Position numbers and translations under genes: made by a program | Notes under the pieces: generated by a model | Database searches by the model: none | What the model was told of the DNA's origin: nothing | The model's input: only the letters and a program-made list of their open reading frames with translations | Shown: piece after piece, positions 1 through 6,558 of the stretch | Layout of the letters: each line of letters opens with the position of its first letter | Position numbering within the stretch: position 1 is the first letter of the stretch | Source: Octopus sinensis | Taxonomy: Eukaryota | DNA: 7,980 nt | NCBI RefSeq assembly: GCF_006345805.1 | Contig: NW_021828640.1 | Location: forward strand, 1-7,980 | Direction: 5' to 3'

Positions 1-283
1 GCCACAGTCAATGACTGAAACAAGTAAAAGAGAAAAGAGACCGATAGAATAAGTACTGGGCTTACAAAGAATAAGTCCTGGGGTAGATTTGCTTGACTAA
101 AGGTGGTGCTCCAGCATGGCTGCAGTCAAATGACTGAAACAAGTAAAAGAGAAAAGAGACTGATAGAATAAGTACTGGGCTTACAAAGAATAAGTCCTGG
201 GGTAGATTTGCTTGACTAAAGGCAGTGCTCCAGCATGGCCGCAGTCAAATGACTGAAACAAGTAAAAGAGAAAAGAGAAAAGA
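1..283 (+). mobile_element. Tandem array (119-bp period) of the 3' end of SINE family A
   Basis: AAAAGAGA recurs at 33, 152 and 271. Each unit (GATAGAATAAGTACT...GCTCCAGCATGGC..CAGTCAAATGACTGAAACAAGTAAAAGAG) is the reverse complement of the 3' ends of the family A copies at 2903, 5565, 5921 and 6559. Confidence 0.9.
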
Positions 284-2902: not shown

Positions 2903-3312
2903 CTTTTCTTTTACTTGTGTCATTTCGACTGCAGCCATGCTGGAGCACCACCTTTAGTTGAGCAAATCGACGCAAGGACTTATTCTTTGTAAGCCTAGTT
3001 CTTATTCTATCGACCTCTTTTGCTGGACTGCTAAGTTACGGGGACTTAAACACACCAGCATCGGTTGTTAAGATGTTGGGGGGGACAAATACGGACACAC
3101 AAACATATAGATACACACACACATACAGACACACACACATATATATATACAATGGGTTTCTTCCAGTTTCTGTCTCCCAAATCCACTCACAAGGCTTTGG
3201 TCAGCCTGAGGTGAGAGTAGAAGACACTTGCCCAAGGTGTCACATGGTGGGACTGAACCCGGAACCATGTGGTTGGTAAACAAGCTACTTACCACAAAGC
3301 CACTCCTGCGCC
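2903..3312 (-). mobile_element. Full-length SINE family A (tRNA-derived head, CORE-like domain)
   Basis: Minus strand starts GGCGCAGGAGTGGCTTTGTGGTAAG (A-box-like) and carries GGGTTCAGTCCC (B-box-like), then GTGACACCTTGGGCAAGTGTCTT (resembles the CORE-SINE core), an internal TA/TG tract and an AAAAG tail. Homologous copies occur elsewhere in the window. Confidence 0.88.
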
Positions 3313-3337
3313 TATATATATATATATATATATATAT

Positions 3338-3543: not shown

Positions 3544-3579
<36 letters not shown>

Positions 3580-3581
<2 letters not shown>

Positions 3582-3990
3582 AATTAAGGACTGAACACGA
3601 AAAGTGGACAGTCAACATGTTAGATATAGATGTCAAATCGCCATTCTCCACAAAAAGTCTATGTTCTCAGATCAAACTCAACACAAAACCAAAGCAATAA
3701 ACAAGTGAAAAATATACGAAATAAATATTTACCCATGTACTAAATTTAGTTTCGGTTGTTATTTTCCGCAAGGAAAAGTGCAACTATCATCAGCATGGTC
3801 CCATATAAAATGCAATTTGCTATACTAAATGCCAATACGATACCGAAATATCGCGTGCATGGAGTACGGCCTATTACATTTGAAATATATATTTCAAATG
3901 TCTCTACTTTTGGGCGATGAGACCCGAGAAAACTAGCCTGCAGCTAAAGTTAGCAGCAGTTAATTTATCGGTTGAGAGAACAAATATTTA
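3580..3990 (-). mobile_element. Second hammerhead-bearing element between (TA)n tracts; probable Penelope-like/retrozyme-type fragment
   Basis: Complex sequence bounded by (TA)n at 3544-3579 and an AT tract at about 3990-4050. Contains the hammerhead at 3733-3798 and several hairpins. Confidence 0.55.
3733..3798 (-). ncRNA. Type I hammerhead ribozyme
   Basis: Minus strand reads CCAUG CUGAUGA ua GUUG cac UUUUCC uugc GGAAAA uaa CAAC c GAAA CUAAAUUUAG UA CAUGG. This gives stem I CCAUG/CAUGG, an intact CUGAUGA and GAAA core, a long stem II, a palindromic stem III and a GUA cleavage triplet. Confidence 0.8.
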
Positions 3991-4004
3991 TATAAAATTT
4001 ATAT

Positions 4005-4009
<5 letters not shown>

Positions 4010-4048
<39 letters not shown>
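4010..4048. repeat. (TA)n microsatellite
   Basis: Direct inspection. Confidence 0.95.
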
Positions 4049-4055
<7 letters not shown>

Positions 4056-4145
4056 GTATGTTGCGTTTGTGAAAATCCTCAATTTTAATATTTAGATATT
4101 GTTTATTTAGGACTACATTAGCTAATGTATATAGTATAGTAGTCA

Positions 4146-4225: not shown

Positions 4226-4568
4226 ATTTATTCCTACATACTCTCTCTTCCATATTTCTACTGTTTCCAATGTATTTTTCCATTTATAATAGAAGATTTG
4301 GCTGTTATTTCTAGTATTGTGTTGTTATTTCTAGTGGCCTTTTTAATTTCCCAAGAAAGAGAAATTTTCAATAACTAAGGATCTGGTTTAAGGAATTCTA
4401 TGGTTGTTAGTTTTGAAACCTGACACTGCTTTTTGTTTTTATTTTGATGGATTGGATTGTCTTGTTAAAAGCTGATCAATTAAAAGCTCATCAATCAATA
4501 ATTATCCAACATGATCAATACCTCATTCATGATTCTTGACTGCTTTCATGTTTACATTCATGGTTTTT

Positions 4569-4745
4569 GCACGTAAAAATCACCATCTGAACATTGTCGA
4601 TGCCGGTTCCGCCTGACTGGCTCCCATACCAGTGGCGCGTAAAAAGTACCATTCGAACATGGCTGATGCCAGTAACCCCTGACTGGCTTTCGTGCCAGTG
4701 GCATGTAAAAGGCACCATCCGAATGTGGCCTATATCAGTACTCCC
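4569..4745 (+). mobile_element. SINE-like family C, 5' part (66-bp internal tandem repeats), interrupted by an insertion
   Basis: GCRYGTAAAA..ACCAT recurs at 4569, 4635 and 4701 (period 66). The period continues exactly at 5290 once the 523-bp insertion plus duplication is subtracted. Confidence 0.8.
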
Positions 4746-4818
4746 AAGTGGTTAAGGCATTGGGTTTGAAATTCAATGGGAGTTTCCCACACAGGAACGT
4801 ATCCTGTTCACAGTGCAA
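4744..4818 (+). pseudogene. 5'-truncated tRNA-Ser retrocopy (anticodon reads TGA; possibly decayed from CGA)
   Basis: D-loop AGTGGTTAAGGC; anticodon stem TTGGG/TTCAA with loop TTTGAAA (anticodon 4767-69); long variable arm GGGA-gtt-TCCC; T-stem ACAGG/CCTGT; 3' acceptor strand TCACAGT; discriminator G, then CAA. Colinear with eukaryotic tRNA-Ser. The 5' acceptor strand is missing and the T-loop is mutated. Confidence 0.85.
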
Positions 4819-5049
4819 GGCGGTGAGCTGGTAGAAACATTAGCACACTGGGTGAAATGCTTAGTGGTATTTTGTCTGCCGCTACGTTCTGAGTTCAAAT
4901 TCCACCGAGGTCGACTTTGCCTTTCATCCTTTCGGGGTCGAGAAATTAAGTACCAGTTATGCACTGGGGTCAATATAATCGACTTAATCCGTTTGTCTGT
5001 CCTTGTTTCTCCCCTTTATGTTTAGCCCCTTGTGGGCAATAAACAAATA
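4819..5049 (+). mobile_element. SINE family B, monomer 1 (tRNA-related head; Nin/Deu-like central motif)
   Basis: GGCGGTGAGCTGGTAGAA head, GAGTTCAAATTCC B-box-like motif, GGTCGACTTTGCCTTTCATCCTTTCGGGGTCGA..AAATTAAGTACC central motif and an A-rich end. A second copy follows directly. Confidence 0.85.
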
Positions 5050-5254
5050 AGAAACGTTAACACGCCGGGCAAAATGCTTAGTGGTATTTCGTCGGCTGCT
5101 ACGTTTTGGTTCAAATTCCGCTGAGGTCAACTTCGCCTTTCATCCTTTCAGGGTCGATTAAATAAGTACCAGTTATGCACTGGAGTCACTATAAACAACT
5201 TTGTCTGTCCTTGTTTGACCCCTCTGTGTGTAGCCCCTTGTGGGCAGTAAAGGA
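5050..5254 (+). mobile_element. SINE family B, monomer 2 (lacks about 14 nt of the 5' end)
   Basis: Colinear with 4833-5049 from AGAAAC onward; ends TGTGGGCAGTAAAGGA at the target-site duplication. Confidence 0.85.
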
Positions 5255-5526
5255 ATATCAGTACTCCCTGACTGGCCCCTGTGCCAGTGGCATGTAAAAA
5301 GTACCATCCGAATATGATTGCTGCCAGTCCCACCTGCAGGTTGCATGTAAAAAGCACCTACTACACTCTCAGAGTGGTTGGCATTAGAAAGGGTATCCAG
5401 CTGTAGAAACATTGCCAGATCAGATTGGAGCCTGGTGCAGCCTCCTGGCTTCCCAGACTCCAGTCAAACCGTCCAACTCATGCTAGCATGGAAAGCGGAC
5501 GTTAAAAACGATGATGATGATGATGA
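5255..5526 (+). mobile_element. SINE-like family C, 3' part with (GAT)n tail
   Basis: Resumes the 66-bp repeat (5290, partial at 5343), continues GGTTGGCATTAGAAAGGGTATCCAGCTGTAGAAAC and ends GGACGTTAAAAAC(GAT)5. Confidence 0.8.
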
Positions 5527-5564: not shown

Positions 5565-5911
5565 CTCTTTTTCTCTTTTACTTGTTTCAGTCACTTGACT
5601 GCAGCCATGCTGGAGCACCGCCCTTTAGTCGAGCAATCAACATCAGGACTTATTCTTTGTAAGCCTAGTACTTATTCTATCGGTCTATTTTGCCAAACCG
5701 CTAAGTCACAGGGACGTAAACACATCAGCATCAGTTGTCAAGTGATGTTGCGGGGCTTCTTTCAGTTTCCATCTACCAAATCCACTCACAAGGCTTTGGT
5801 CGGCCCGAGGCTATAGTAGAAAACACTTGCCCAAGGTGCCACGCAGTGGGACTGAACCTGGAACCATGTGGTTGGGAAGCAAGCTACTTATCACACAGTC
5901 ACTCCAGCGCC
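5565..5911 (-). mobile_element. SINE family A copy with the internal microsatellite segment deleted
   Basis: Colinear with 2903-3312 from tail to head, but jumps at about 5750 from GATGTTG directly to GGGCTTCTTTCAG. Confidence 0.88.
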
Positions 5912-5920
5912 TATATTTAT

Positions 5921-6122
5921 TCTTTAATTTGCTTCAGTCATTTGACTGTGGCCATGCTGGAGCACCATCTTTAGTCGAGCAAATCGACCCCAGGATTTAT
6001 TCTTTGTAAGCCTAGTACTTATTCTATTGGTCTCTTTTGCCAAACTGCTAAGTTACGGGGATGTAAACACACCAACATCGGTTGTCAAGCGATGGTGGTG
6101 GGGACAAACACAGACACACACA
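5921..6122 (-). mobile_element. SINE family A, 5'-truncated copy (3' half only)
   Basis: Matches 2903-3110 and stops in the internal (CA)n tract. Confidence 0.88.
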
Positions 6123-6124
6123 TA

Positions 6125-6546
6125 TTTTATCATTGTTCCAGTCATTTAACTGTGGCCATGCTGGGGTACCGCCTTTAAGAATTTTTAGTTGAATGAATCA
6201 ATCTCAGTACTTTTACTAAGGGTTAGGGTTACTATTAAGCCTAGCACTTATTTCATCAACCTCTACTGCTGAACTGCTAAGTTACAGGCATGTAAACACT
6301 CCAACACTGGTTGTCAAGCAGTGGGATGGGGGACAAACAGACTCAAAAAGACATACACACAAACACACACATTTATACATACATATGTACAACAGGCTTC
6401 TTTCAGTTTCCGTCACCCGAATCCACTCACAAGGCTTGGGTTGACCCAAGGTTATATTAGACGACACTTGCTTAAAGTGCCATCCAGTGGAACAGAACCC
6501 AGAACGATGTGGTTGGGAAGCAAGCTACTTACCACACAACCACACC
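6125..6546 (-). mobile_element. SINE family A, older or diverged full-length copy
   Basis: Same tail-to-head order with many more substitutions; head ends at CCACACAACCACACC. Confidence 0.8.
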
Positions 6547-6558
6547 TATATATATATA

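What the first reader, a model, noticed from the sequence alone, without database searches (positions are those of the whole stretch)
3733..3798. Hammerhead ribozyme with an intact catalytic core on the minus strand
Seen: the minus strand reads CCAUG-CUGAUGA-[stem II: GUUG/CAAC plus UUUUCC/GGAAAA, loop UUGC]-GAAA-CUAAAUUUAG-UA-CAUGG. The conserved core nucleotides are present, stem I pairs 5/5, and stem III is the perfect palindrome ACUAAAUUUAGU. Predicted cleavage is after GUA, between window positions 3738 and 3737. Known: type I hammerheads with palindromic stem III occur in Penelope-like element termini and retrozymes and can act as dimers. Inference: this is a self-cleaving RNA of a non-autonomous retroelement, with an unusually long stem II. 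Caveat: the pair closing stem II is A.C rather than the usual G-C, preceded by an extra U, so this copy may be impaired.
Basis: partly seen in the sequence, partly recalled or inferred. Interest (0 to 1): 0.85.

Follow-up and report, generated by a model that had tools for sequence, protein, structure and literature searches.

The report
Hammerhead retrozyme riding Penelope-like transposons
The motif is a hammerhead-ribozyme sequence inside a truncated copy of a 510-base non-coding repeat, part of which recurs over 2,000 times in this animal genome; the repeat likely cuts its own RNA and is likely pasted into TA repeats by Penelope-like transposon enzymes, a kind of element already described in other animals.

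Summary
Confirmed. Window 3798-3733 (-) is a type I hammerhead, predicted to cut between 3738 and 3737. It lies in a 5'-truncated, single-ribozyme copy (3580-3999) of a 510-nt non-coding unit inserted in (TA)n. A 24-mer from the unit's 3' end has 2,483 exact genomic matches. Three lineages keep stems I, II and a palindromic stem III through compensatory changes. Insertions show Penelope-like hallmarks: tandem units, 5' truncation and head-to-head inversions, with a ~106-nt tail on exactly one arm in 37 of 39. It is a non-LTR retrozyme, likely moved by a Neptune-type element; young intact ones are present but share no sequence with it. The extra U is lineage-wide and a known Penelope-hammerhead trait. 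The A.C pair is rare in this lineage (2 of 39 copies) and costs 3.8 kcal/mol, but non-G-C closures occur in amplified sister lineages. Cleavage, expression and circles were not shown. This is a known kind of element; the scan noted Penelope hammerheads on shark and rotifer DNA before.

The parts
3580..3999 (-). 5'-truncated copy (unit positions 91-510 of 510) of the retrozyme, lineage A; 97.9% identical to a full natural unit
3733..3798 (-). type I hammerhead ribozyme motif
3794..3798 (-). stem I, 5' strand (pairs 5/5 with 3733-3737)
   Evidence: compensatory C-G/U-A change between lineages
3787..3793 (-). catalytic core C3-A9
   Evidence: invariant in 43 of 43 lineage-A rows
3785..3786 (-). 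extra U after A9 (lineage-wide) and A10.1 (G in 36 of 39 distinct lineage-A copies)
3754..3784 (-). long stem II: proximal stem, conserved 3x3 internal loop, 6-bp distal stem with tetraloop, C11.1
3739..3750 (-). palindromic stem III (4 bp plus self-complementary tetraloop as a monomer; 12-bp duplex as a dimer)
3737..3738 (-). predicted cleavage site, after GUA
   Evidence: hammerhead rules, not tested
3580..3650 (-). conserved 3'-terminal 70 nt of the unit (61 of 73 columns identical across three lineages); the first reverse-transcription start site is inferred at its end
3544..3579 (.). (TA)n target array on the 3' side of the element
4000..4059 (.). short duplication of the element's 5' junction followed by the (TA)n array; no target-site duplication can be called

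Best explanation
The motif is a type I hammerhead inside a 5'-truncated copy of a 510-nt non-coding repeat (a non-LTR retrozyme) that likely self-cleaves its tandem transcripts and is likely copied into (TA)n arrays by the reverse transcriptase-endonuclease of a Penelope-like element, probably of Neptune type. Steps. (1) Shown: intact loci hold 1-9 head-to-tail units, each with one hammerhead. (2) Inferred: multimeric transcripts are cut after GUA. Two ribozymes are predicted to pair through the palindromic stem III; in lineages B and C the monomer is predicted to bury its own CUGAU core, so the dimer would act as the on-switch. (3) Inferred from other retrozymes: unit-length RNA is ligated into circles. 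(4) Shown as DNA anatomy, inferred as mechanism: the partner protein cuts (TA)n and primes reverse transcription at two sites 106 nt apart, unit positions 510 and 106, both next to TATA motifs, one per target strand. This gives head-to-head, 5'-truncated arms with a tail on one arm. (5) Shown: the window copy started at 510, stopped at 91, has one ribozyme and a rare G10.1-to-A change; it is probably a dead end, able to cut weakly or only in trans.
For: Family: 52 matches among the 40 best candidates scored, the 40 near-full-length ones 95-100% identical; 2,483 exact matches to a 3' 24-mer, control 0. Covariation: 99.1% of 585 cells paired in stems I and III, with both-side changes at 2 of 9 pairs, against 8.5-34% for slid controls. 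Stem II pairs 2, 3 and 5 covary. Stem III is self-complementary in 60 of 67 distinct sequences with several different palindromes. The AU/GC change at its loop-closing positions could pair in a monomer only around a 2-nt loop. Folding of 64-75-nt fragments: core sequestered in the monomer in 18 of 18 lineage-B and 18 of 19 lineage-C sequences; double hammerhead below twice the monomer energy in 17 of 18 and 18 of 19. Anatomy: 39 of 56 unbiased insertions are head-to-head, 37 of these 39 carry the tail on exactly one arm, none on both (binomial p 3e-9 against 0.5). These are described Penelope-like features (PMC8557442), and two RT start sites flanking the tail were shown in vitro for an anole element (PMC11167929). 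Candidate partner: 781-aa RT plus GIY-YIG frames, 98-100% identical among five loci, with a CxxxxCxxC linker, ending in (TA)n with their own tail and a minimal hammerhead variant. GC content 33%; the circular unit folds with z -4.6, 0 of 40 shuffles as low.
Against: No sequence similarity between the unit and any of the 39 GIY-YIG/PLE loci examined (best E 0.21), so the partner is inferred from target and anatomy only. No pile-up of 5' truncations at the cleavage site: 2 of 92 within 5 nt, where about 2.3 are expected from the 21 within 50 nt. The DNA therefore gives no sign that cleaved linear RNA is the template; most arms stop 40-80 nt downstream of the site and lack the ribozyme. No Rfam hammerhead match. 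Units within one insertion are not always closer to each other than to outside copies (L010, L012, L024), which argues against simple rolling around one circle in those cases. The antisense strand folds nearly as well (z -4.1). In print, 8 of 9 Xenopus retrozyme dimers did not cleave in vitro (bioRxiv 2026.07.22.740005), and the anole ribozyme needed its protein and was dispensable for insertion in vitro. Covariation counts reflect few independent events among related lineages.
Confidence: 0.8

Rival explanations
1. The unit is the detached pseudo-LTR of an autonomous Penelope-like element not found here, so the window copy is an ordinary 5'-truncated PLE end.
For: Same insertion anatomy as PLEs; Xenopus retrozymes match PLE pLTRs. 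One lineage-C copy lies about 1.1 kb downstream of, and in line with, a broken PLE fragment (L131). Only 150 of 5,029 GIY-YIG candidates were scored.
Against: Full units are preceded by another unit or by (TA)n in the loci examined. Three lineages 73-87% alike keep the same ~505-530-nt non-coding unit. tblastn of PLE proteins on 174 retrozyme loci gave fragments in 6, with no shared linking sequence seen.
Confidence: 0.1
2. The ribozyme folds but its cleavage is not needed for transposition: uncleaved multimer transcripts are the template, and the hammerhead is protein-dependent or serves another step.
For: No truncation signal at the cut site; tolerant 10.1-11.1 pair; heterogeneous units within some insertions; the anole result. 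This rival is compatible with the element's identity in the best explanation and differs only on the role of cleavage.
Against: Core, GUA and stems are kept through compensatory changes across three lineages, and several unalignable repeat families in the same genome keep the same architecture, which implies selection on the catalytic fold.
Confidence: 0.3
3. A satellite-like DNA repeat spread by recombination or DNA-level transposition, with a chance or vestigial hammerhead.
For: Tandem arrays of up to 9 near-identical units exist.
Against: Dispersal over all large contigs, fixed 3' ends, variable 5' truncation, inversions and one-sided tails mark target-primed reverse transcription; structure-preserving covariation.
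Confidence: 0.03

Closest known systems
Metazoan non-LTR retrozymes (Cervera and de la Pena 2020, PMC7229834; Li, Clavereau and Pollet 2026, bioRxiv 10.64898/2026.07.22.740005)
   Same: Non-coding, low-GC tandem units with one type I hammerhead each; monomers, dimers and multimers; proposed PLE dependence.
   Different: 510 nt (170-400 typical in the 2020 paper, within the 51-972 range of the 2026 one). No sequence match to a resident PLE end was found. Ribozyme has the PLE-type extra nucleotide and a long, internally looped stem II. Expression and circles not shown. No cephalopod example seen in the passages read.
Hammerheads of Penelope-like elements (Cervera and de la Pena 2014, PMC4209133)
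   Same: Short stem I (5 bp), long stem II, extra nucleotide between A9 and 10.1, G10.1-C11.1 in most lineage-A copies, palindromic stem III suited to dimers.
   Different: Stem III is 10-12 nt, not minimal; stem II has a conserved 3x3 internal loop 5 bp from the core; U.U, U.C and A.C closures occur in amplified lineages; no ORF attached.
Neptune and other EN+ Penelope-like retrotransposons (Craig et al. 2021, PMC8557442; Frangieh et al. 2024, PMC11167929)
   Same: (TA)n target, partial tandems, inverted 5'-truncated copy, tail on one end, two apparent RT start sites.
   Different: Non-coding; tail about 106 nt against 30-40 bp; both start sites lie at TATA motifs matching the target, whereas the anole Poseidon element starts at sites not homologous to the cut DNA.
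Hammerhead satellites of newts and Dolichopoda cave crickets (PMC2837043; newt case via PMC7229834)
   Same: Repeat-encoded type I hammerhead with single and double-hammerhead folds; similar unit size to pDo500.
   Different: Dispersed retrotransposed insertions with short arrays, not long satellite blocks.

Membership tests
Type I hammerhead ribozyme | Core CUGANGA, GAAA and UH around a three-way junction with open stem I | tested here: met
Type I hammerhead ribozyme | G10.1-C11.1 closing pair (quasi-conserved) | tested here: not met
   A.C in this copy; G-C in 36 of 39 distinct lineage-A copies; variable in lineages B and C
Type I hammerhead ribozyme | Loop 1-loop 2 tertiary contact | tested here: inconclusive
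   Internal loop of stem II and GUAA after stem I are conserved across lineages; no structural test
Type I hammerhead ribozyme | Match to an Rfam hammerhead model | tested here: not met
   none at E<=10
Type I hammerhead ribozyme | Site-specific self-cleavage | not testable with these tools
   needs in vitro assay or raw RNA reads
Non-LTR retrozyme | Tandem units of a few hundred nt, each with a type I hammerhead | tested here: met
   family level; the window copy itself is a single truncated unit
Non-LTR retrozyme | No protein-coding capacity, low GC | tested here: met
   33% GC; only short stop-to-stop frames (65 and 125 aa) overlap the window copy; indels between lineages
Non-LTR retrozyme | No LTR, PBS or PPT | not tested
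   no dedicated search; no LTR-like layout seen
Non-LTR retrozyme | Expressed as linear and circular unit-length RNA | not testable with these tools
   only contigs were available; see Tried and rejected
Penelope-like mobilisation | Partial tandems, inverted 5'-truncated copy, one-sided tail, microsatellite target | tested here: met
Penelope-like mobilisation | Sequence homology to the pLTR of an autonomous PLE | tested here: not met
   0 of 39 PLE/GIY-YIG loci; sample incomplete (150 of 5,029 candidates scored)
Autonomous Penelope-like element | RT plus GIY-YIG ORF joined to the repeat | tested here: not met

The most novel reading that the evidence does not exclude
This genome holds a guild of sequence-unrelated retrozymes that hijack one Penelope-like protein through a shared signal in the tail: a small CC-ACU-GG stem-loop motif found in lineages A-C and in two families that do not align to them (L223, L225/L226), though not in two others or in the 39 PLE loci. 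Each insertion is built by a dimeric enzyme that primes the two target strands at two different UA motifs by pairing with (TA)n, and the ribozyme carries a built-in monomer-off, dimer-on switch because its stem III palindrome can pair with its own core. That would define the cis-signal of retrozyme parasitism and give genome-scale support for two-site priming.
Probability: 0.3. Interest if true: 0.65.

Novelty: new member of a known kind. Interest (0 to 1): 0.4.

Why it matters
Retrozymes and Penelope hammerheads are known, so the motif alone is not surprising. The value is in the family. It is young, has thousands of copies and several lineages, and shows the Penelope insertion signature unusually cleanly (tail on exactly one arm in 37 of 39 head-to-head insertions). 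This links the two-start-site result obtained in vitro to genomic insertions of a non-coding parasite. It offers natural ribozyme variants (closing pair, extra nucleotide, palindrome length) and intact candidate partner proteins for testing two open questions: what the hammerhead does in Penelope-type transposition, and how a retrozyme with no homology to its helper is recognised.

Tried and rejected
Expression: no RNA holder listed; six holding runs were only guessed to be RNA. Four runs were laid, all as contigs. Contigs of two RNA-guessed runs appeared to begin at the cleavage site or one base after it. I rejected this: a 4-T/5-T variant 30 nt downstream (visible) would break 31-mer contigs at exactly those places. 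The depth step at the site in one run is confounded by the 90% likeness cut-off and by most genomic copies lacking the ribozyme. Truncation at the cleavage site: a few copies start there (L108, L150 exactly; L029, L053, L100 within a few bases), but the unbiased sample shows no excess (2 of 92). ADAR-type editing trace: A>G 10 against T>C 12 in 47 lineage-A-like copies, no strand bias. Rolling around a single circle: supported by two arrays (C1:29.27 Mb, L212), not by L010, L012, L024; left open. Partner search: a recalled Pfam accession was not in the library; the RVT_1 search listed 150 places that I did not fetch or classify; a motif from a loose end had 0 genomic matches; L131 inspected and judged a probable chance neighbour. 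Rfam: only microsatellite-driven miRNA hits. MAFFT misaligned stem II between lineages, so stem II pairs were counted by motif anchoring and only stems I and III on the alignment. No earlier finding by sequence.

Full report
Observation. A relaxed descriptor hits 7 of 1000 shuffled windows. Rfam gives no hammerhead match, and the 66-mer alone folds at z -1.83, so the case rests on homologues.

The element. They define a 510-512-nt unit with a sharp 3' end on (TA)n, variable 5' truncation, tandem units and inverted copies. The window copy is unit positions 91-510 (3580-3999), between two TA arrays, with one ribozyme. Related lineages B (about 87% identical; 64 pattern matches) and C (about 73%; 305 and 157 matches) have the same unit. 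A 24-mer from the 3' end matches 2,483 times and a loose ribozyme pattern 1,667 times against 16 for its control; the latter includes other families. The tail (87 of 108 columns identical) and the last 70 nt (61 of 73) are better conserved across three single representatives than the middle (121 of 190) or the ribozyme region (39 of 78, with a length change).

The ribozyme across copies. Of 43 aligned lineage-A rows, 40 have G at 10.1, 2 have A and 1 a gap; four rows are duplicates from overlapping loci, so 36, 2 and 1 of 39; seven partial copies were left out. The extra U is in all 43. An extra nucleotide at this place, a short stem I, a long stem II and a palindromic stem III are listed as traits of Penelope hammerheads (PMC4209133; parts 1-2 of 4 read). 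A review passage reports that U at the extra position raised trans-cleavage 3-4-fold in a viroid hammerhead (PMC3705267, passages). Among 66 distinct sequences (one chimeric copy dropped), stem I pair 4 is C-G in A and B and U-A in C; stem II pairs 2, 3 and 5 covary; the closing pair is G-C, U.U (23 of 27 in C), U.C (6 of 20 in B) or A.C (4 of 20 in B, 2 of 19 in A); the internal loop and the GUAA after stem I are nearly invariant. On the 65-row alignment, stems I and III are 99.1% paired with two both-side changes. These are few independent events, and two of the five shuffle measures do not exceed their controls. Stem III is self-complementary in 60 of 67 sequences; six of the seven exceptions are single-base deletions, perhaps assembly errors.

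Folding. For the common lineage-A sequence the hammerhead is the minimum-energy fold (-15.6). For the window copy it ties with an inactive fold at -11.8, in which the core pairs with the palindrome's 3' half. In lineages B and C, with 10-nt palindromes, that inactive fold is the monomer minimum in 18 of 18 and 18 of 19. The double hammerhead lies below twice the monomer energy in 17 of 18 and 18 of 19, and equals the co-fold minimum in 13 of 18 and 11 of 19. These are isolated fragments, without concentration or tertiary terms. Dimeric hammerheads are established for amphibian retrozymes (PMC7229834, passages) and proposed for cricket satellites (PMC2837043, passages).

Insertion anatomy. I took the first 100 of the 2,483 matches, all on contig C1, as a sample unbiased for the 5' end, giving 59 loci; three covering one 9-unit array were left out of the architecture count. 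Of 56, 39 are head-to-head; 37 of these carry the tail on exactly one arm, 2 on neither, none on both; tail ends cluster at one place. In about six the tail arm is itself truncated within the tail, and the classification was automatic. Inverted truncated copies and a one-sided 30-40-bp tail are described for PLEs (PMC8557442, passages). An anole PLE protein cuts and extends both strands and starts at two sites flanking the tail (PMC11167929, parts 1-2 of 4). I infer one start site per strand. Both sites here abut TATA motifs, so pairing with the nicked target is plausible (inference). 5' ends peak 40-80 nt downstream of the cut site with no excess at it (2 of 92), and 25 of 92 extend upstream of it, so templates were uncleaved or circular at least in those cases.

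Helper. A GIY-YIG search scored 150 of 5,029 candidates. A young family has 781-aa RT-GIY-YIG frames, 98-100% identical among five loci, with a CxxxxCxxC linker and an upstream 479-aa frame without Pfam match (RVT_1 just under its cut-off). It ends in (TA)n with a ~40-nt tail and a U3-A8 hammerhead variant read by eye. The linker marks Neptune and Nematis per PMC8557442; no tree was built, so 'Neptune-type' is a label by motif. None of the 39 loci resembles the unit. The helper is therefore inferred, at about 0.6 for a Neptune-type element.

Other families. One search revealed further hammerhead repeats with the same looped stem II. Seventeen regions were fetched: four families that do not align to A-C (L214-217, L218-222, L223, L224-226) and more distant relatives (L227-230), nearly all with palindromic stem III and most beside (TA)n. 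A 12-nt tail motif of A-C recurs in L223 and L225/L226 but not in the other two families or the PLE loci.

Comparison and verdict. It works like, and meets the testable criteria of, a metazoan non-LTR retrozyme; the PLE link for that class is argued in bioRxiv 10.64898/2026.07.22.740005 (parts 1-3 of 5 read). It is not an autonomous PLE. Six searches (listings only, apart from the papers named) showed no paper on a cephalopod retrozyme. No supplements were read, and those of the 2014, 2020 and 2021 papers, as well as Repbase and Dfam, may list this family.

Noticed in passing
L214-L217, L218-L222, L223, L224-L226 (G000 contig C1): Four more hammerhead-bearing repeat families that do not align to the window's family, with different palindromic stems III, the same looped stem II and mostly (TA)n targets; head-to-head pairs seen in several.
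   Followed up: partly
L094:174-3877 and L091-L099: Young Penelope-like family with intact 781-aa RT-GIY-YIG frames and an overlapping upstream 479-aa frame with no Pfam match; the 3' region has repeated CCAAT-, CRE- and TATA-like motifs (read by eye) and a U3-A8 minimal hammerhead.
   Followed up: partly
L098:1-1741 (-): A second PLE family (47% identical protein) whose 3' region carries a hammerhead-like motif with a U4-to-C core change and a 6-nt palindromic stem III, read by eye.
   Followed up: no
window 3580-3640 (-) and unit junction: A CRE-like TGACGTC, then a reverse CCAAT and a TATA run at the unit junction could be a Pol II promoter; the window copy has a G-to-A change in the CRE-like motif, and the CCAAT part is not kept in lineage C. 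Motif names recalled.
   Followed up: no
window 3580-3985 (-): Four of the five substitutions against the L008 unit are G-to-A on the RNA strand; the family-wide excess (18 against 10) is not significant.
   Followed up: partly
window 3876-3901: A perfect AT-rich hairpin containing an internal TATATA that was not seen used as a 3' end in the sampled insertions.
   Followed up: no
window 1-278, 2911-3320, 4546-4747, 4820-5260, 5267-5520, 5569-7090: Many copies of other dispersed repeats, some tandem or inverted, that also recur in the flanks of fetched loci; probably SINE-like.
   Followed up: no
G000 C1:29.275-29.280 Mb (L157-L165): A nine-unit head-to-head array whose units differ by 0-4 substitutions, fewer than to any outside copy examined.
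   Followed up: partly
L131:2985-1574 (-): Lineage-C copy truncated just upstream of stem I, about 1.1 kb downstream of a broken PLE endonuclease fragment on the same strand.
   Followed up: partly
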